64,000 nt of DNA from Candidatus Brocadiia bacterium (lineage in GTDB: Bacteria; Planctomycetota; MHYJ01; JACQXL01): assembly GCA_041658285.1 (NCBI GenBank), contig JBBAAP010000002.1, forward strand, positions 44,252-108,251. Reading direction: 5' to 3'. Positions 14,702 to 64,000 of the stretch are shown here, piece after piece. The position numbers and the translations under genes are program-made. Positions within the stretch are counted from its first letter, which is position 1. Every line of letters starts with the position of its first letter. The notes below the pieces were generated by a model, which saw only the letters and a list, made by a program, of their open reading frames with translations, ran no database searches and was not told where the DNA came from.

Positions 14702-15047
14702 ATATACCTACCTTTTTAGTGGCTGTTAGCAACTCCGATGACCATCGGAGTGGCGTTATCTGCCACTTATCCCGACTATTCCGTCGGGGCCGGGGGGCTC
14801 TTCACTCTCTCCCCCATATATACACCCGTCGAGAACCACGAATGTCACAGGAAAAATGAGAATTTTGTAAAAATAATTCAGAAAGTTTTATGCCAAAGGC
14901 ACCATGCCCGAGGCAGGCGGAGACGAAGATTAAGCCGATTTAGCCGACAGGGTAGATTCCTTGACATAACCGGTTCAATCCTGTATAGATTCACGCCTTA
15001 CCCCGCTCTATCCGTCTTCATCCAAGAGCGGGAGACAGTTTATTGTT

Positions 15048-15134: not shown

Positions 15135-15755
15135 ATGCAGCAAGACACAAGAAGCGATGAGCAGTTGGCACGGGCATTTAAACTGGGCGAGGACCGGGCT
15201 TTCGACGAGCTCTACCGCAGGTATCTCAACCGTCTGCGTTTTTATATTTTAAAAATCAGCTGGTTCAAGGACGACATCTACCTCGAAGAAGTACTCCAGC
15301 AAATATTTATCGTCGTCTGCCAGGGGATAAAAATCGGCAAATTCGCGCCCTGGGATTATGTGCCGTCCGAAAAGATGAGCGGTACCTTCCGACGCTGGAT
15401 TTTTACGGTGGCACGGATTGAATGCTACAAACAGGACGAAAAACGCTCCTCCGGGCCGGTGCTGATGCCCAAACAGATCGCCGACGCCCTGCCGGACATG
15501 TTGGCCGATATGCGGCCGGATGCGGTTGAAGAGGTGGAGTCGCATCAGCACTTGACAAAAAAATTGGAAATGATACTATCGCACCTGACGGCGGATGACC
15601 AAAAGCTCTTCGAGCTGAAAAACAAAGGCGTAAAATACCAGGATATACTAAACGAGCCGGAGTTCAAAAACATACGCCTGGGCCCGCTCAGGATGCGATA
15701 CTGCCGAATACTGGACTTGATAAAAGAGTTATTAAAGAAAGACGAACAAGAATGA
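15135..15755 (+). CDS. ECF-type RNA polymerase sigma factor
   Basis: Region 2 is FDELYRRYLNRLRFY...FRRWIFTVARIECYKQDEKR and matches the FxxWLxxIARN...D..R pattern. The C-terminal region-4-like HTH is GVKYQDIL...RMRYCRILDLIKELL. Confidence 0.6.
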   Translation: MQQDTRSDEQLARAFKLGEDRAFDELYRRYLNRLRFYILKISWFKDDIYLEEVLQQIFIVVCQGIKIGKFAPWDYVPSEKMSGTFRRWIFTVARIECYKQDEKRSSGPVLMPKQIADALPDMLADMRPDAVEEVESHQHLTKKLEMILSHLTADDQKLFELKNKGVKYQDILNEPEFKNIRLGPLRMRYCRILDLIKELLKKDEQE

Positions 15756-16087
15756 AAAAAGAAAAGCCCGTCAAAAAGACCGTCCGCCGGGACAGTTGCG
15801 CCAAATACAAAATGGACATCCTGGACTACGTCACCGGAGATATGACTTTCATAACCGCGCAAAAACAGAAAGCACTGCTTATACACGTCCGGAAATGCCC
15901 CAGATGCCAGCAGGCATATTTTGAGTATGAAAACATCCACGCCGCGGCCCGAACCATAGGACGGGCCAAAAACCCGGCCTTCAAGGCGAAAATGGACGCT
16001 ATGCTCGAAACCATCAAGAAAAAATGCGCCAACAAAGGCGACAAGCCGCCAAGCTGTTCCGATGACAAGCCCGACAATAAAAAATAG
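15752..16087 (+). CDS. Zinc-binding anti-sigma factor (ZAS family, RsrA-like)
   Basis: C16...H46-x3-C49-x2-C52 (HVRKCPRC) matches the ZAS motif. It overlaps the sigma gene by 4 nt, has no TM helix, and carries extra Cys at 82 and 92. Confidence 0.55.
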   Translation: MKKEKPVKKTVRRDSCAKYKMDILDYVTGDMTFITAQKQKALLIHVRKCPRCQQAYFEYENIHAAARTIGRAKNPAFKAKMDAMLETIKKKCANKGDKPPSCSDDKPDNKK

Positions 16088-16576
16088 GGGTTATAGGGGT
16101 ACTCCATACCCCTAATCCCGGTTATCGACACAACCTATAAGGATTATCAACATCTACAGTCCCGGTTATTGACACCCCTAATACCGGTTATCAATATTCC
16201 TAATCCCGGTTATCGATACCCCCAATCCCGGTTATCGATACCCCTAATCCCGGTTATCAACATCCCTAATCCCGGTTTTCGATACTCCCTGCCTAAGTAA
16301 CGGTTATCTCCTATACCTGTTATCGATATCCCCTGTCCGGGTTTATCACACCTCCTATATAAATGGCCTACATCCCCTATCCGGGTTTATCACTCATCCG
16401 ATATAAATGGCCTACATCCCCTATCCCAGTTATCGATACCCACTACCCGAGCAGTAACCATCTCCTATACCGGTTTTCGATACACCCTATGCCCGTTTTC
16501 GATACACCCAATCCCGATTTACGATACAGGGATTAGGGGTTAGGGGGGAGGGGGGTAGGTATCTCCCCCCCCTCCA
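16088..16576. repeat. Degenerate tandem array of about 19 units of a 22 bp repeat (consensus CCTAATCCCGGTTATCGATACC, palindromic core TATCGATA), ending in a G-rich inverted repeat (GGGATTAGGGGTTAGGGGGGAGGGGGG...CTCCCCCCCCTCC)
   Basis: Direct reading shows units adjacent with no spacers. The central units are near-identical and the flanks degenerate. The array lies between the convergent anti-sigma and GT2 genes. Confidence 0.9.
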
Positions 16577-16769
16577 AATATGCATGAGCAAAGCCTCCTA
16601 ATCAAATAATTAACTCTATAAGATTAGGATATATTAGAATTTGGGAGCGGGGAAAAGCTGATTTACCAAAAATGACGCCAGGAAATGGGCATAAATAGTG
16701 AATTATCCGGCTGGGGAAGTGTCCCTCTAGACCCACGAGAATATTATCTTTTAGCGGGCATCCTGCTTT

Positions 16770-43314: not shown

Positions 43315-43400
43315 CAGAAATACCTTTTTAGTAAGCGGATTAAGCTGATTTCACGGATAATTCTCAATCTGCAATTTGAAATCTGTAATCTCCCGTCCTC

Positions 43401-57567: not shown

Positions 57568-58437
57568 CTATAATTGCAGATGTCTGAGTTGATTATCCGG
57601 CACGCGGAATCCCGACCAGTGCACGTATTCCTCGGTAGGCAGATTTTCGTATTGTTTCGGCGTGAGCGCCAGTATGAAACCGCCCTGAACGCTTATCTTG
57701 CGGTAATGCAGTTCGGCAAAGAACTTGTCATTGGGCATATCGGCGTGAATGCTCTTTAGCGTCTTAAAATCGTGGTAATCCTGGTTACTTCCGACGAAGC
57801 CGTCATAGGCGCTGTCTTTGACGTAATAAAGGTCTTTCCTCTTGTAATATTTATCCAACGCCTGGCTCCAAAAAAATATGCCTTTGACGCCGGTGGTGCC
57901 GTAGGAATATTTATGATCCAGCATATAACGGCTGACCTCGGTACGGATAAAGCGCCAGACTCCGGCAATCTTGGTAGCCGGCAGTTTGCCTTCCCTGACC
58001 AGCCGGTAAATCGTCCGGCGGTTGACGCCTAGCGCCTGGGCCACCTGATTCAAGGTCATCACCCCGCCCTCAAAGTTCATCCCTAAAACATGGCCGGGCA
58101 CATCGCGGCTATGAGTCAGGAATTGACGAACCTCTGACTGAAGAAACTGCCACCTGCCGCCTAACTTTACAGCGGGCAACTTCTTCACATTAATTAACCG
58201 ATAAATGGTAAACCGGCTTAGGCCCAGATATTCGCAGACCTCTTTCAGGGTCATCAGGCCGGGTTTAATAATGTATTTGGTTGGCGTTTTGTATACAAGC
58301 AGTTTCTCAACGTCCTTCTGTTCAAAACGCCACTGTCCGCCGATGCGCTTGGCAGGCAATTTCCCTGATTTGAGCAACCGGTAAACCGTGCGGGTAGAGA
58401 TACCCAGTTGTTTACAGACGTCATTTACAGTTAGCAT
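57568..58437 (-). CDS. DNA-binding protein with three tandem excisionase/MerR-type HTH domains and a ~140 aa uncharacterised C-terminal domain
   Basis: Three tandem copies of the LT(V/L)xxVxxxLG(I/L/V)SxxT(V/I)YRL(L/I)xxGKLPAxK(I/L)GGxWRF pattern. Confidence 0.6.
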   Translation of the reverse strand: MLTVNDVCKQLGISTRTVYRLLKSGKLPAKRIGGQWRFEQKDVEKLLVYKTPTKYIIKPGLMTLKEVCEYLGLSRFTIYRLINVKKLPAVKLGGRWQFLQSEVRQFLTHSRDVPGHVLGMNFEGGVMTLNQVAQALGVNRRTIYRLVREGKLPATKIAGVWRFIRTEVSRYMLDHKYSYGTTGVKGIFFWSQALDKYYKRKDLYYVKDSAYDGFVGSNQDYHDFKTLKSIHADMPNDKFFAELHYRKISVQGGFILALTPKQYENLPTEEYVHWSGFRVPDNQLRHLQL

Positions 58438-58582
58438 ATAAGTTATGTAAGCGGATTTAGCTGATTTATCAGATTTAGAACCATCGGCTTAATCTGCTTA
58501 ATCAGCTTACTAAACAGGACAAAATATGACAAGAAATGTAGTGCAATGTTGCAGGATAGGACAGGCTATGGCACTGACCAGT

Positions 58583-58936
58583 ACCTACACTACTACTACC
58601 CCCTGCCTACACCTCTACCACCCCTGGCCTACACCTCTACTACCTCTGGCCTGCACCTCTACTACCTCCGGCCTGCACCTCTACTACCTCCGGCCTACAC
58701 CTCTACTACCTCCAGCCTACACCTCTACTACCTCCAGCCTGCACCTCTACTACCTCCAGCCTACACCTCTACTACCCCCGGCCTACACCTCTACTACCTC
58801 CGGCCTTCACCTCTACTACCTCCGGCCTACACCTCTACTACCTCTGGCCTACACCTCTACTACCCCCGACCTACATCTATACTACCCCTGACTTACACCC
58901 ATATTACCTCCGGCTTACAGTCCTACCACTATCGGC
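58583..58936. repeat. Degenerate tandem array of about 16 units of a 22 bp pyrimidine-rich repeat (consensus CCTACACCTCTACTACCTCCGG)
   Basis: Direct reading shows near-identical central units and degenerate flanks, with no spacers. The six-frame ORFs here (58526..58891, 58546..58980) are translation artefacts of the repeat. Confidence 0.9.
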
Positions 58937-58957
58937 TTTCACATAGGGGTAGGCAGG

Positions 58958-59010
58958 AATGTGTGACGTCGCACATTTGAGAGCAGGTATAATGTTAGAC
59001 GTCTAACATT
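58958..59010. promoter_or_regulatory. Two 20 bp palindromes centred on GACGTC (AATGTGTGACGTCGCACATT and AATGTTAGACGTCTAACATT) spaced 33 bp centre-to-centre; candidate tandem operator for a dimeric regulator
   Basis: One is a perfect 20 bp palindrome and the other near-perfect (19/20). They lie immediately right of the 22 bp array. Confidence 0.4.
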
Positions 59011-59177
59011 TTACCAAGAAGGGTATTAAAAAAATGTTGGCCGGCAAACATTTACCAGATATGGTTATTGCGCTTCTATCCCGCTTTATTCATAAATGCC
59101 TTGCGGCGTTTGCATTCTGCGGTAGCGGGATAAACCGCCGTAAGGCTCTCGGGACCATCAAACTGCCAGAGTATAAT

Positions 59178-59600
59178 TTATGAATTATTCGGGTCTATCA
59201 GCTTGAGCCATTCATCCGGCGGGTCTATTTGCAGTCCCTTGAGGATTTTCTTGATGTAATCCGGTTCACGGGAATCAAACTGGTTGTGAGATGGAATACG
59301 ACAAAGAAATTGCAGGCTGGGAATATTTGTAACCAGGAGCGGTTCTATATGGAAATAAGTGTTGTGCTCGTCATAACTCATATCAATAATCTTCAAGAAT
59401 ACGAAAGGAAGATTGGTTGGGTCAGCGCTTTTGCCCTGAATCATTCCCCGGCTATACACCCCTAAGCCGGGCAGTGGACAGGAGCCTTTGAGGGCATCCC
59501 AATCCTCTAATTTGGTATGCCTGATACTGACATACTCGGCCTGCCTGGCCCTTTCCCAGTAAGGGCTTTGCGGGGTGTAAAGGACAATAATCTTTTTCAT
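59178..59600 (-). CDS. Hypothetical protein (140 aa) in a low-GC islet
   Basis: It is a clean ORF with local GC clearly below the window average. I recognise no motifs. Confidence 0.35.
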   Translation of the reverse strand: MKKIIVLYTPQSPYWERARQAEYVSIRHTKLEDWDALKGSCPLPGLGVYSRGMIQGKSADPTNLPFVFLKIIDMSYDEHNTYFHIEPLLVTNIPSLQFLCRIPSHNQFDSREPDYIKKILKGLQIDPPDEWLKLIDPNNS

Positions 59601-60523: not shown

Positions 60524-63040
60524 TTACTGCCCCGCCTGCGTTGGGGTATTCCTCTGAGTAGTCGTCCCATCTCCTAATTGACCATTGTCGTTGAGTCCCC
60601 AAGCCCAGAATGAGCCGTCGGTTTTTAATGCACTGGTGTGAGCGCCACCAGCGGCGATGGCTGACCAGCCCGTGCCAATAAGCGTCGGGGTGTTCTTATT
60701 AATTGTTGTCCCGTCCCCTAATCGACCAAAGCCATTAGATCCCCATGCCCAGAGTGTGCCGTCGGTCTTTAAGGCAATGGCGTGCTCCTCACCAGCGGCG
60801 ATGGCAGAGAAGCCCGTGCCAATCAGTGTTGGGGTCAAGTTAGCATATATTGTTCCATCGGCTAATGCACCATACCCGTTCGAGCCCCAAGTATGAAGCG
60901 AGCCATCTGACTTTAAGGCAATGGTGTGATACCAACCAGCGGCGATGGCTGACCAACCCGTGCCAATAAGCGTCGGGATCAATTTATTAGTCCCGTATCC
61001 ACTTGTCCCATCGCCTAATTGACCAGACCTATTCCAGCCCCAAGTATAGAGCGAGCCATCTGATTTTAAGGCAACGGTGTGCTCGTAACCAGCGGCAATG
61101 ACTGACCAGTTGTTCTCAGTGCCAATCCGGGTTGGGGTAGTCTTACTTATCGTTGTCCCATCACCTAATTGACCATATTCGTTATATCCCCAAGTCCAAA
61201 GTGAGCCGTTTGCTTTCAAGGCGATGGTGTGCCAGCCTCCAGCAGCAATAGCTAACCAGTCAGTATCAGTACCAATACGAGTTGGGGTATTTTTATTAGT
61301 ACCAATTGTCCCATCACCCAATTGACCGTAGGCATTATCTCCCCAGGCCCAGAGTGTGCCATCGATCTTGAGGGCAATGTTGTACCCGACGCCAGCGTCA
61401 ATGGCTGACCAGTTGGTATCCGTGCCAATCCGGGTCGGGGTCAATCTATTAGTTGTTGTCCCATCGCCTAATTCACCATAGAAGTTCTGTCCCCAGGCAT
61501 AGAGCGAGCCATCGATCTTTAAGGCAATGGTGTGCCCGCTACCAGCCGCAATGACCGACCAATCTCTTGCCCTAACATATACTTCGTTAGAATAGGCGCT
61601 GGCGGCTACGTTGTTATAAGCCCGAACACGATAATAATAGGTCGAAGAAAGAGAAAGATTTGTATCTGTGTAGACGGAGGTATTTGCCGTTACTGTAATA
61701 AGGAGTGAATAGGCGGTATTTGTTACGCCCCGTTCTATCTCGTATCCGTCTTCATTATCAGTAGTATCAATCCAGTAAAGCGCTATTGCGGTACGTGAAA
61801 TGATTGTAAGAAGTCCTAAAGGCGCGATAAGTAGTGTGGTGGCTGATGCCTCGTTGGTGTAGGTGCTATCACCGTTTGAATTATAAGCCATGATGCGGTA
61901 AGAGTAGACCGTTCCATCTGTCAGTCCGGTATTGGAATAAGTAGTTAGATTGGCACTAACTGTAGTAATCTGTGTCCATATTCCACCTGCACCGGTCTTG
62001 CACTCTATCTTAAATCCGTCTTCATTACTGGAATTATCGGTCCAGGTGAGGTTAATCTGTGATGTTGACACGGTATTAGCCGACAGGATAGTCGGCGCAT
62101 TGAGAGCAATTGCATCAGATGCCTCGTTGGAATAGGCGGAATTAGTGGTTGCATTATACGCCCTGACCCGATAATAATAGATGGCACCATCTACCAAGCC
62201 GGTATTGGAATATGTGATGATATTTGCGCCTATGTCGGCAATCTGGCTATAGGTTCCGCCGGAGCCGGTTTTACGCTCTATTTTATAGCCGGTTTCATTA
62301 TCGGTATTATCCGTCCAGGTCAAATCAATCTGCGAAGAGGAAATAACCGCAACATTCAGCGATAACGGCGGCGCTATCTGAGTAGTAAAACTCCAGACCG
62401 TGCCAGTAGTCGTGCCGGTAGCATTCTTTGAGTCAATCCGCCAGTAATAAGTAGTGCTATATGTAAACGTGCCGGGATTATAACTCGTGCCGGACTGATT
62501 GATAATAAATGTTCCCGGCGAGGTCGTACCGAAATAAACATCATAAGAAGTAGCCCCGCTGGCTGATGCCCAACCTAACTGTTGATTAATAGACGCATTA
62601 ATTGTATTATTAGCCGGGCTTGGCGAGGTTACCTGTGCAGACGGTGCTATTTGCGTGATAAAGGTCCAGACATTACCGGTAGTTGTCCCAACACTATTTT
62701 TGGAATCTATCCGCCAGTAATAGGTGGTGCTATATGTAAGTGTATCAGGATTATAACTCGTGCCGGACTGATTGCCGACAAATGTCCCAGGTGCAGTTGT
62801 GCCGAAAAAGACATCATAAGAAGTTGCGCCACTGACAGAAGCCCAAGAGACTTGAGTAGTTGTTATCACATTAGTTGCGCTATTAGACGGTGTCGGTGAG
62901 GTTACTTGGGCAGTTGCGGTTGGTGTTCCGCTACTGCCACTTGAGCCACCAATGTCTCCACAACCGCCATAATTAAATGCGGTGATATAAGCAATAAACA
63001 TAATAACTGTGGCTGTTTTTAATATGGATTTACTGTGCAT
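60524..63040 (-). CDS. Secreted protein with ~5 N-terminal FN3-like repeats and a C-terminal seven-bladed RCC1-like beta-propeller
   Basis: It has a signal peptide. The repeated ~85 aa modules read ...SWASVSGATSYDV(F/Y)FGTT.PGTF..NQSGTSYNP.T.TYSTTYYWRIDSKN and YYYRVRAYN. Seven blade repeats follow the H(T/A)IALK.DGSL..WG.N..GQLGDGT pattern. Confidence 0.65.
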   Translation of the reverse strand: MHSKSILKTATVIMFIAYITAFNYGGCGDIGGSSGSSGTPTATAQVTSPTPSNSATNVITTTQVSWASVSGATSYDVFFGTTAPGTFVGNQSGTSYNPDTLTYSTTYYWRIDSKNSVGTTTGNVWTFITQIAPSAQVTSPSPANNTINASINQQLGWASASGATSYDVYFGTTSPGTFIINQSGTSYNPGTFTYSTTYYWRIDSKNATGTTTGTVWSFTTQIAPPLSLNVAVISSSQIDLTWTDNTDNETGYKIERKTGSGGTYSQIADIGANIITYSNTGLVDGAIYYYRVRAYNATTNSAYSNEASDAIALNAPTILSANTVSTSQINLTWTDNSSNEDGFKIECKTGAGGIWTQITTVSANLTTYSNTGLTDGTVYSYRIMAYNSNGDSTYTNEASATTLLIAPLGLLTIISRTAIALYWIDTTDNEDGYEIERGVTNTAYSLLITVTANTSVYTDTNLSLSSTYYYRVRAYNNVAASAYSNEVYVRARDWSVIAAGSGHTIALKIDGSLYAWGQNFYGELGDGTTTNRLTPTRIGTDTNWSAIDAGVGYNIALKIDGTLWAWGDNAYGQLGDGTIGTNKNTPTRIGTDTDWLAIAAGGWHTIALKANGSLWTWGYNEYGQLGDGTTISKTTPTRIGTENNWSVIAAGYEHTVALKSDGSLYTWGWNRSGQLGDGTSGYGTNKLIPTLIGTGWSAIAAGWYHTIALKSDGSLHTWGSNGYGALADGTIYANLTPTLIGTGFSAIAAGEEHAIALKTDGTLWAWGSNGFGRLGDGTTINKNTPTLIGTGWSAIAAGGAHTSALKTDGSFWAWGLNDNGQLGDGTTTQRNTPTQAGQ

Positions 63041-63886: not shown

Positions 63887-64000
63887 GCAAACTCCTTATA
63901 AGTAAGCGGATTCAGCCGATAGTGTGGCAGTTTGAACGTAGTGAATTACTGCCAACTATACTGGGCTGTAACTCGCTTTGCTCTAACAGCCCAAGTATTA

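What the first reader, a model, noticed from the sequence alone, without database searches (positions are those of the whole stretch)
58583..58936. A second, unrelated 22 bp tandem array (about 16 units, pyrimidine-rich) upstream of the triple-HTH gene
The units CCTACACCTCTACTACCTCCGG repeat head-to-tail with the same 22 bp period as the array at 16.1 kb but a different sequence. The top strand is about 73% pyrimidine. The six-frame ORFs across it are artefacts, since 3 x 22 = 66 nt gives the 22 aa periodicity. The array starts about 150 bp upstream of the start codon of the three-HTH DNA-binding protein. Immediately right of it lie two GACGTC palindromes. Two independent 22 bp arrays in one 64 kb window suggest a genome-wide class of minisatellites. 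Alternatively each is a dedicated binding array. Copy-number change here could tune expression of the adjacent regulator.
Basis: seen in the sequence. Interest (0 to 1): 0.7.

Follow-up and report, generated by a model that had tools for sequence, protein, structure and literature searches.

The report
Conserved 22-bp array before regulator gene
The 22-bp tandem repeat is real and non-coding, and it is one part of an undescribed upstream region (22-bp array, G-run, ten-bp operator-like repeats) found in front of almost every member of a rare DNA-binding protein family in Planctomycetota, most likely as a phased protein-binding platform.

Summary
TRF finds a period-22 array at 58584-58919 (15.3 copies, 89% match), 146 bp upstream of the 3xHTH_17 gene (57568-58437, minus strand).

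The array is non-coding. In relatives the equivalent arrays have stop codons in all six frames.

The main result comes from comparison. Every homologous locus with enough upstream DNA has a period-22 array at the same place, usually with a different unit sequence. This holds for 12 distinct triple-HTH loci and 5 of 6 distant single-HTH relatives that share the same novel C-terminal domain.

In the triple-HTH loci the array abuts, in register, a short G-rich junction. It then meets a 72-nt block that aligns without gaps across 16 loci. The block holds six direct repeats (TGyMAyATTT) about 10 bp apart, ending in a promoter-like site.

In 264 kb examined, 23 of 24 non-coding minisatellites have period 22. 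Two near-identical relatives differ by exactly six units.

The HTH domains superpose on BldC and Xis, which bind direct repeats as head-to-tail multimers.

My best reading is an iteron-like, helically phased protein-loading or titration array within an autoregulatory region. It is not a replication origin, a plasmid centromere or a coding repeat. Who binds the units is unresolved.

The parts
58584..58935 (-). 22-bp tandem array. It has 16 units in register, and TRF reports 58584-58919. The unit in gene orientation is AGGTAGTAGAGGTGTAGGCCGG.
58922..58953 (.). Distal cap of the array. An inverted half-unit (ATAGGGGTAGG) forms an 11-nt, 91% complementary hairpin with the last unit. Similar inverted caps occur in L008 and L011.
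   Evidence: I4
58580..58605 (-). Proximal degenerate unit with a G5 run in gene orientation (GGGGGTAGTAGTAGTGTAGGTACT). This is the G-rich junction. It is weaker here than in relatives, many of which have GGGGGTC or runs of G5-6.
58508..58579 (-). Conserved 72-nt block that aligns without gaps in 16 loci. It holds six direct repeats TGyMAyATTT spaced 10, 10, 10, 12 and 10 bp apart (58573-64, 58563-54, 58553-44, 58543-34, 58531-22, 58521-12). I take these as the presumed operator sites.
58504..58532 (-). Putative promoter: TTGTCA, 17 nt, TAAGCT. Relatives have TTGTCA or TTGCAA, 17 nt, then TATTAG, TAATAT or TAAAAT at the same position. This is inferred; the consensus scanner did not call it.
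   Evidence: sequence
58443..58511 (-). Leader with an imperfect palindrome built from 9-bp TAAGCNGATT repeats. This motif is generic to the genome.
57568..58437 (-). Gene for a 289-aa protein. It has three BldC/Xis-like winged HTH_17 domains plus a 114-aa C-terminal domain of unknown fold.
16106..16581 (+). Second array of the same class. It has about 19 degenerate 22-bp units, a G-run junction at 16528-16560 and a C8 run. There is no operator block and no family gene beside it.
59025..59053 (-). Intrinsic terminator of the upstream gene 59178-59600, formed by the palindrome 59032-59053 followed by a T-run when read on the minus strand. It is not part of the module.
   Evidence: I5
58958..59010 (.). 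Two 20-bp palindromes centred on GACGTC. They are not conserved in relatives and their role is unknown.
   Evidence: I6, I2, I3

Best explanation
The array is the outermost part of a conserved, self-contained upstream control region of an uncharacterised protein family, which has one or three HTH_17 winged helices plus a novel C-terminal domain. Read towards the gene, the order is as follows: a 22-bp tandem array of 4 to 18 units, a G-run junction, five or six direct repeats about 10 bp apart that overlap a promoter-like site, a leader, and then the gene.

I propose that the 10-bp repeats are operators bound head-to-tail by the BldC/Xis-like domains, giving autoregulation. I also propose that the 22-bp array, at one unit per two helical turns, is a phased multi-site platform. 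On it the same protein (or its C-terminal domain, or a partner) would load cooperatively along one face of the DNA. In this way it would work like plasmid iterons or centromere arrays, titrating the regulator and building an extended nucleoprotein structure next to its promoter. Gain or loss of units would then tune the system.

What is shown: the architecture, its conservation, the fixed period and phase, the rapid concerted divergence of the units, the non-coding status and the copy-number polymorphism. What is inferred: protein binding, who binds, and the regulatory outcome.
For: Seventeen distinct homologous loci carry a period-22 array upstream of the gene. Twelve are triple-HTH loci and five are single-HTH-plus-CTD loci whose CTD is only 33-44% identical to this one.

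In 264 kb examined, 23 of 24 non-coding arrays with period 12 or more have period 22, and one has period 21.

In the triple-HTH loci the arrays abut the conserved block in register. In-phase, same-strand unit matches average 8.2 of 22, against 5.4 for all other rotations and the opposite strand. Unit similarity tracks protein identity (Spearman 0.65). Even so, syntenic loci with 88% identical proteins share only 12 of 22 unit positions.

The 72-nt block aligns without gaps in 16 loci and contains six TGyMAyATTT repeats.

Each HTH superposes on BldC at 1.2 A with 35% identity, and also on Xis, RdfS, RacA and the pSK1 Par DNA-binding domain. BldC binds 9-bp direct repeats as head-to-tail multimers (PMC5859096).

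In some loci the unit itself contains an operator-like site. L080 has TTTGACATAAT against its own operator TTTGATATAAT. L021 scores 8.5 bits (p=0.013) and L017 scores 6.3 bits (p=0.03).

L086 and L087 differ by exactly 6 units. Iterons of 22 bp, and the dependence of cooperative binding on helical phase, are established for R6K and pPS10 (PMC4980987).
Against: The window's own unit has no operator-like site. Its best PWM score is -0.8, the same as shuffled units.

No motif is universal across units. A weak TAGAGG core occurs in 9 of 19.

The recognition helices are conserved and do not co-vary with unit sequence. Sequence-specific reading of the variable units by the HTH domains is therefore unlikely.

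The 16.1-kb array and L022 show that an array plus junction can exist without the operator block. L088 has a family gene but no array.

There is no binding or expression data. The promoter assignment rests on weak hexamers that the scanner did not call.
Confidence: 0.5

Rival explanations
1. The array acts through DNA structure rather than as specific binding sites. Examples are a helically phased bent or stiff segment, a G-quadruplex-prone junction, or a barrier that insulates the regulator's promoter from read-through of the co-directional upstream gene.
For: The period and phase are conserved while the sequence is not. G-runs sit at the junction in most loci, and a canonical G4 motif occurs in 5 of 13. 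The upstream gene is co-directional in the window, L008, L011, L080, L085 and L086.
Against: Composition and strand bias vary widely, with purine fraction 0.47-0.74 and GC 0.30-0.60. The G4 motif is absent in most loci, including the window. There is no consistent 11-bp sub-period. The upstream gene already has its own terminator in the window.
Confidence: 0.2
2. The array is a contingency or VNTR locus. It has no binding function of its own, and slippage changes promoter context, giving heritable expression variants of the regulator.
For: L086 and L087 differ by 6 units with 99% identical flanks. Higher-order 44- and 66-bp repeats and unit homogenisation indicate frequent unequal exchange.
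Against: The sequence distal to the array is not conserved, so there is no fixed upstream element whose distance could be tuned. Steps of 22 bp keep the helical face and should change little by spacing alone. Two assemblies of this organism show the same copy number.
Confidence: 0.12
3. The array is transcribed and acts as a repeat RNA, for example as a protein sponge or an antisense regulator.
For: The strand asymmetry in the window would give a largely unstructured purine-rich or pyrimidine-rich RNA. This has not been tested directly.
Against: There is no Rfam match. Folding z-scores are -1.3 and -0.3. No promoter-like site faces the array. Strand bias and unit orientation differ between loci: L022 and array 1 are inverted relative to the junction.
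Confidence: 0.08
4. The array is the iteron origin or partition centromere of an integrated plasmid-like or phage-like element.
For: The 22-bp period equals that of R6K and pPS10 iterons. The array lies upstream of the gene for a wHTH protein, as in the pSK1 par system. Genomes carry two or three copies of the gene.
Against: The locus is on a 433-kb contig among housekeeping genes. Synteny is stable in L008 and L011. There is no Rep, ParA, ParM, TubZ or integrase nearby. There is no DnaA box or AT-rich unwinding element at the array. The C-terminal domain is absent from 72,556 plasmids, 50,697 phages and IMG/VR.
Confidence: 0.04
5. The array is a neutral minisatellite, or a coding low-complexity repeat.
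For: An open frame spans the window's array on the plus strand.
Against: The array is present at the same position and phase in 17 loci, across protein divergence down to 33% identity. The period stayed at 22 while the sequence turned over. Relatives have stops in all six frames. The period of 22 is not a multiple of 3.
Confidence: 0.04

Closest known systems
Plasmid iterons (R6K gamma origin and pPS10, 22-bp units; P1 incC/incA control arrays)
   Same: They are tandem direct repeats of 22 bp, equal to two helical turns. They lie next to the gene of the protein presumed to bind them. There are separate operator repeats in that gene's promoter. Cooperative binding depends on helical phase, and the arrays also titrate the protein (PMC4980987).
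   Different: The protein here is not a WH1-WH2 Rep. There is no DnaA box or unwinding element. The location is chromosomal, with two or three copies per genome. Arrays reach 18 units, and the unit sequence turns over while the protein's recognition helices stay constant.
BldC (Streptomyces) and Xis/RdfS-type winged-helix architectural proteins
   Same: Each HTH domain superposes on BldC at 1.2 A with 35% identity. BldC binds variable numbers of about 9-bp direct repeats head-to-tail and distorts the DNA. The six 10-bp direct repeats in the block fit that binding mode.
   Different: This protein has three covalently linked domains plus a novel 114-aa C-terminal domain. Its NCBIfam BldC score is below the cutoff (53 against 77). 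BldC has no associated 22-bp array.
Centromere arrays bound by winged-helix or RHH proteins (pSK1 par, R1 parC, TubR/tubC)
   Same: These are arrays of direct repeats directly upstream of the gene for the binding protein, which also autoregulates its gene. The pSK1 Par DNA-binding domain is a structural match (8csh).
   Different: There is no motor NTPase, no plasmid and no coiled coil. The C-terminal domain is absent from plasmid and phage collections.
Bacterial VNTRs and contingency repeats upstream of genes
   Same: Copy number is polymorphic between close relatives, and the units are homogenised.
   Different: The unit is much longer than typical contingency repeats of 1-7 bp. The period is strictly conserved, and the array keeps its position across a whole protein family rather than in a single species.

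Membership tests
Iteron-type replication origin | Tandem direct repeats of 17-22 bp in helical phase | tested here: met
   The array has period 22 and 15.3 copies.
Iteron-type replication origin | Adjacent gene encodes a Rep initiator with the WH1-WH2 (Rep_3 or pi) fold | tested here: not met
   Pfam gives only HTH_17 three times. The fold matches BldC, Xis and RacA. The NCBIfam plasmid replication DNA-binding model scores 32 against a cutoff of 85.
Iteron-type replication origin | DnaA boxes and an AT-rich unwinding element beside the repeats | tested here: not met
   No TTATCCACA with one mismatch or fewer occurs within 58300-59300. The lowest GC in a 100-nt window is 0.35, in the leader.
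Iteron-type replication origin | Located on an autonomous replicon | tested here: not met
   The contig is 433 kb and carries dapB and other housekeeping genes. Relatives lie on contigs of 80-132 kb.
Plasmid partition centromere (parC, tubC or pSK1 par type) | Repeat array upstream of the gene for the centromere-binding protein | tested here: met
Plasmid partition centromere (parC, tubC or pSK1 par type) | Partner NTPase (ParA, ParM or TubZ), or a coiled-coil Par protein, on a plasmid | tested here: not met
   The neighbours have no such domains. The C-terminal domain is an alpha/beta fold, not a coiled coil. There are no plasmid homologues.
BldC family regulators | MerR-like winged HTH without a dimerisation or effector domain, scoring above the NCBIfam HTH_BldC cutoff | tested here: not met
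   The fold matches. However, NF033787 scores 53.2 against a cutoff of 77, and the protein has three domains plus a C-terminal domain.
BldC family regulators | Binds direct repeats head-to-tail as cooperative multimers | not testable with these tools
   Six 10-bp direct repeats are present in the conserved block. Binding itself has not been tested.
Coding tandem repeat (low-complexity protein) | Reading frame conserved across the repeat in relatives | tested here: not met
   There are stops in all six frames in L008, L011, L021, L003, L022 and L002.
CRISPR array | Repeats separated by unique spacers | tested here: not met
   The units are arranged head-to-tail with no spacers.
VNTR or contingency locus | Copy number polymorphic between close relatives | tested here: inconclusive
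   The feature is met in L086 against L087, which differ by 6 units. Two assemblies of the window's organism are identical.

The most novel reading that the evidence does not exclude
The array, G-run, operator repeats and HTH_17-CTD gene together form a previously unrecognised chromosomal iteron-like system. In this reading the protein polymerises along a helically phased 22-bp array into a long nucleoprotein filament. The array's length, set by unequal exchange, would provide a heritable and tunable set-point. It might alternatively act as a chromosome-organising or locus-pairing site. The strict 22-bp period would then be imposed by the geometry of the filament rather than by base-specific recognition.
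Probability: 0.25. Interest if true: 0.8.

Novelty: new variant of a known kind. Interest (0 to 1): 0.62.

Why it matters
If the array is a binding platform, this would be a chromosomal, non-replicative counterpart of plasmid iterons or centromeres. It would be tied to a new domain architecture and restricted to poorly studied groundwater Planctomycetota.

It would also be a clear natural case in which selection holds the period and phase of a repeat fixed while its sequence turns over. That pattern says something about how architectural DNA-binding proteins read DNA.

There is also a practical point. These arrays break short-read assemblies just upstream of the gene in most metagenomic contigs.

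Tried and rejected
- **Rfam:** the whole window gave no match.
- **Coding hypothesis:** rejected on frame analysis in relatives.
- **Co-variation of HTH1 helix residues with unit sequence:** none found.
- **Operator PWM in the window's unit:** no site found.
- **11-bp sub-periodicity of units:** inconsistent between loci.
- **Universal unit motif:** only a weak TAGAGG core.
- **G-quadruplex junction as a universal feature:** seen in only 5 of 13 loci.
- **Orthologues of the 111-aa ORF next to array 1:** none exist, so the conservation of array 1 could not be tested.
- **Window unit elsewhere in the window:** one chance 11-mer only.
- **Viral contigs, plasmids and phages:** no relatives found.
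- **Literature searches:** nothing on 22-bp repeats in Planctomycetes or anammox bacteria. One paper gives a bare count of 260 tandem repeats in Kuenenia.

Full report
**The observation**

TRF finds a period-22 array at 58584-58919. It has 15.3 copies, 89% matches, no indels and the consensus CCTACACCTCTACTACCTCCGG. Printed in 22-nt rows, 16 units run from 58584 to 58935, and the three distal units are degenerate. The top strand is 72% pyrimidine.

The array ends 146 bp from the ATG of the minus-strand gene 57568-58437. That gene's product has three PF12728 HTH_17 domains. Two 20-bp palindromes centred on GACGTC follow at 58958-77 and 58991-59010.

A second assembly of the same organism has the identical array. 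A third assembly breaks inside it.

**Context**

The window is chromosomal DNA of a Candidatus Brocadiia (Planctomycetota) MAG. The identical protein lies on a 433-kb NCBI contig, and the neighbouring genes are ordinary, including dapB, a large beta-propeller protein and an RCC1-repeat protein.

The protein family is small. There are 31 hits among 5.8 billion clusters, and every named hit is from Planctomycetes or Brocadiia. Some genomes carry two or three copies.

**The array is conserved as a feature, not as a sequence**

I fetched loci of homologues from genome and metagenome collections and by exact protein look-up. Every triple-HTH locus with enough upstream DNA has a period-22 array upstream of the gene. 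These are L002, L003, L008, L010, L011/12, L013, L014/17, L018, L020, L021 and L022. They have 4 to 18 units, and the unit sequences are mostly different. Many contigs simply end within about 300 bp upstream of the gene or inside the array, which is consistent with assembly failing on the repeat.

A search with the C-terminal 114 residues against 1.84 billion representative proteins found only 19 relatives. Nearly all are proteins of 157-205 aa with one HTH_17 domain followed by the same C-terminal domain. Five of the six such loci I could read also have a 22-bp array upstream: L080, L081, L082, L085 and L086/87. L088 does not.

Across 264 kb (the window plus all family loci), TRF finds 23 non-coding arrays of period 22 and one of period 21. 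It finds none of any other period of 12 or more. The only other arrays are the 150-bp coding repeats of the RCC1 gene.

**Anatomy of the upstream region**

I anchored the triple-HTH loci on a conserved motif and printed the upstream DNA in 22-nt rows. The arrays run in register right up to a G-rich junction of one or two degenerate units.

They then meet a 72-nt block that aligns without a single gap in 16 loci. The block holds six direct repeats with the consensus TGyMAyATTT, spaced 10, 10, 10, 12 and 10 bp apart. The last two repeats overlap a sequence resembling a sigma-70 promoter: TTGTCA or TTGCAA, 17 nt, then TAnnnN. This promoter is an inference, because the consensus scanner does not call it in the window.

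The single-HTH loci show the same layout of array, G-run and three to five 10-bp direct repeats before the start codon.

In the window the block is 58508-58579. A leader follows, made of TAAGCNGATT repeats that occur upstream of other genes too.

At the distal end, an inverted half-unit forms a hairpin with the last unit. L008 and L011 have similar caps.

**How the units evolve**

Consensus units compared in the anchored register, on the same strand, share 8.2 of 22 positions on average. All other rotations and the opposite strand average 5.4. Clear relatives exist:

| Loci compared | Shared unit positions (of 22) |
|---|---|
| Window and L013 | 16 |
| Window and L017 | 12 |
| L008, L010 and L018 | 18-21 |

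Unit similarity rises with protein identity (Spearman 0.65). However, the syntenic pair L008 and L011, whose proteins are 88% identical, share only 12 of 22 positions.

The arrays therefore descend from a common ancestor and are homogenised within each locus. They diverge much faster than the gene, yet they never lose the 22-bp period or the phase. L086 and L087 encode the same protein, have flanks 98.7-99.5% identical, and differ by exactly 132 bp, which is six units.

**The array is not coding**

Arrays in L008, L011, L021, L003, L022 and L002 have stop codons in all six frames. The open frames across the window's array follow from its low purine content on the top strand. Strand bias itself is not conserved, with purine fraction ranging from 0.47 to 0.74.

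**The protein**

AlphaFold models give three winged-helix domains. Each superposes on BldC (6ama and 6amk, 1.2 A, 35% identity). Each also matches Pukovnik Xis, RacA, RdfS, TraN and the pSK1 Par DNA-binding domain. The best PDB sequence match is RacA.

BldC binds variable numbers of about 9-bp direct repeats as head-to-tail multimers (PMC5859096). This fits the six 10-bp repeats in the block.

The recognition helices of domains 2 and 3 are almost invariant across the family. The two variable residues in helix 1 do not track the unit sequence.

**Who binds the units?**

This is unresolved. A PWM built from the 96 block repeats finds good sites only in the units of L021 and L017. L080's unit carries a near-copy of its own operator. 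The window's unit does not score. About half of the units share a weak TAGAGG core.

Conserved helices alongside variable units argue against base-specific reading of the whole unit. Recognition may involve a short core, DNA shape, the C-terminal domain or another factor.

**The 16.1-kb array**

Its units are not similar in sequence to this array. It has the same period, though, and its right end is the G-run GGGGGGAGGGGGGTAG. That sequence is identical to the array-operator junction of L080. It has no operator block and no family gene beside it, and its units are more degenerate (70-79% match).

I read it as a solo or relic member of the same class. L022 shows a related layout, with the array inverted relative to the junction. 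No further array lies within 10 kb either side of the window.

**Comparison with known systems**

The closest functional analogues are plasmid iterons and centromere arrays bound by small DNA-binding proteins that autoregulate their own genes. Iterons of R6K and pPS10 are 22 bp, and their cooperative binding is phase-dependent (PMC4980987).

Membership of those families fails on tested features:

- There is no Rep fold, no DnaA box and no unwinding element.
- There is no partition NTPase.
- The location is chromosomal and syntenic.
- The C-terminal domain has no homologue in plasmid, phage or viral collections.

The protein is BldC-like in fold but is not a BldC family member by score or architecture. 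I found no description of these arrays in the searchable literature.

**Verdict**

The array is one element of a conserved three-part region found across a whole protein family. The pyrimidine bias and the GACGTC palindromes are local accidents. The class is gene-linked rather than dispersed genome-wide.

The mechanism I favour is a phased protein-loading and titration platform within an autoregulatory region. It rests on analogy and architecture, and binding has not been demonstrated.

Noticed in passing
window 58448-58509, 43332-43350, 63903-63912, 14931-14940; L001, L005, L008, L013, L016, L018 just after the family gene's stop codon: The 9-10-bp motif TAAGCNGATT has 7 exact hits against 0.77 expected. 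It occurs in short tandem or palindromic clusters immediately upstream of the start of several minus-strand genes. The related motif TAATCTGTG occurs in triplets after genes in relatives. This looks like a genome-wide intergenic element of unknown function.
   Followed up: partly
window 16106-16528: Units of the 16.1-kb array contain TTATCGACA or TTATCAACA, which is one mismatch from the DnaA box TTATCCACA. About 19 near-boxes are spaced 22 bp apart.
   Followed up: no
window 16543-16581: The G-run GGGGGGAGGGGGGTAG is identical to the junction in the distant locus L080. It is followed by a C8 run that can pair with it in a strong G/C hairpin.
   Followed up: partly
window 15135-16087: A weak ECF sigma-factor-like ORF (15135-15755) is followed by a 111-aa ORF whose only database hit is itself. 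Both lie directly left of the 16.1-kb array.
   Followed up: partly
L008 4538-4996, L010 417-860, L016 297-746, L022 2545-2985: In one sub-clade, a gene of about 150 aa lies between the array or block and the family gene. It resembles the N-terminal HTH of IS630 transposases and has its own 22-23-bp repeats (2.7 copies). In L022 it is followed by an ORF encoding the C-terminal domain alone.
   Followed up: partly
L082 1-2435: An IS element with a DDE_Tnp_1 transposase is inserted between two different 22-bp arrays (11 and 12 units) and the single-HTH family gene.
   Followed up: no
L086 3564-3800 and L087 3429-3800: The same 205-aa protein and near-identical flanks occur in two metagenomes, but the array differs by 132 bp (six units, or three 44-bp higher-order repeats).
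   Followed up: yes
window 58958-59053: There are three palindromes of about 20 bp with AATGT...ACATT arms. The third (59032-59053), together with the adjacent T-run read on the minus strand, is the terminator of gene 59178-59600. The two centred on GACGTC have no counterpart in relatives.
   Followed up: partly
window 60524-63040: The RCC1-repeat and fibronectin type III gene accounts for the 144/150-bp tandem repeats reported by TRF. One short-read assembly breaks inside it (L076).
   Followed up: yes
L003 3540-3565: A single copy of the window-type unit (GGGGTAGTAGAGG) lies upstream of L003's current, different array. It looks like a relic of an earlier unit type, which suggests array turnover.
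   Followed up: no
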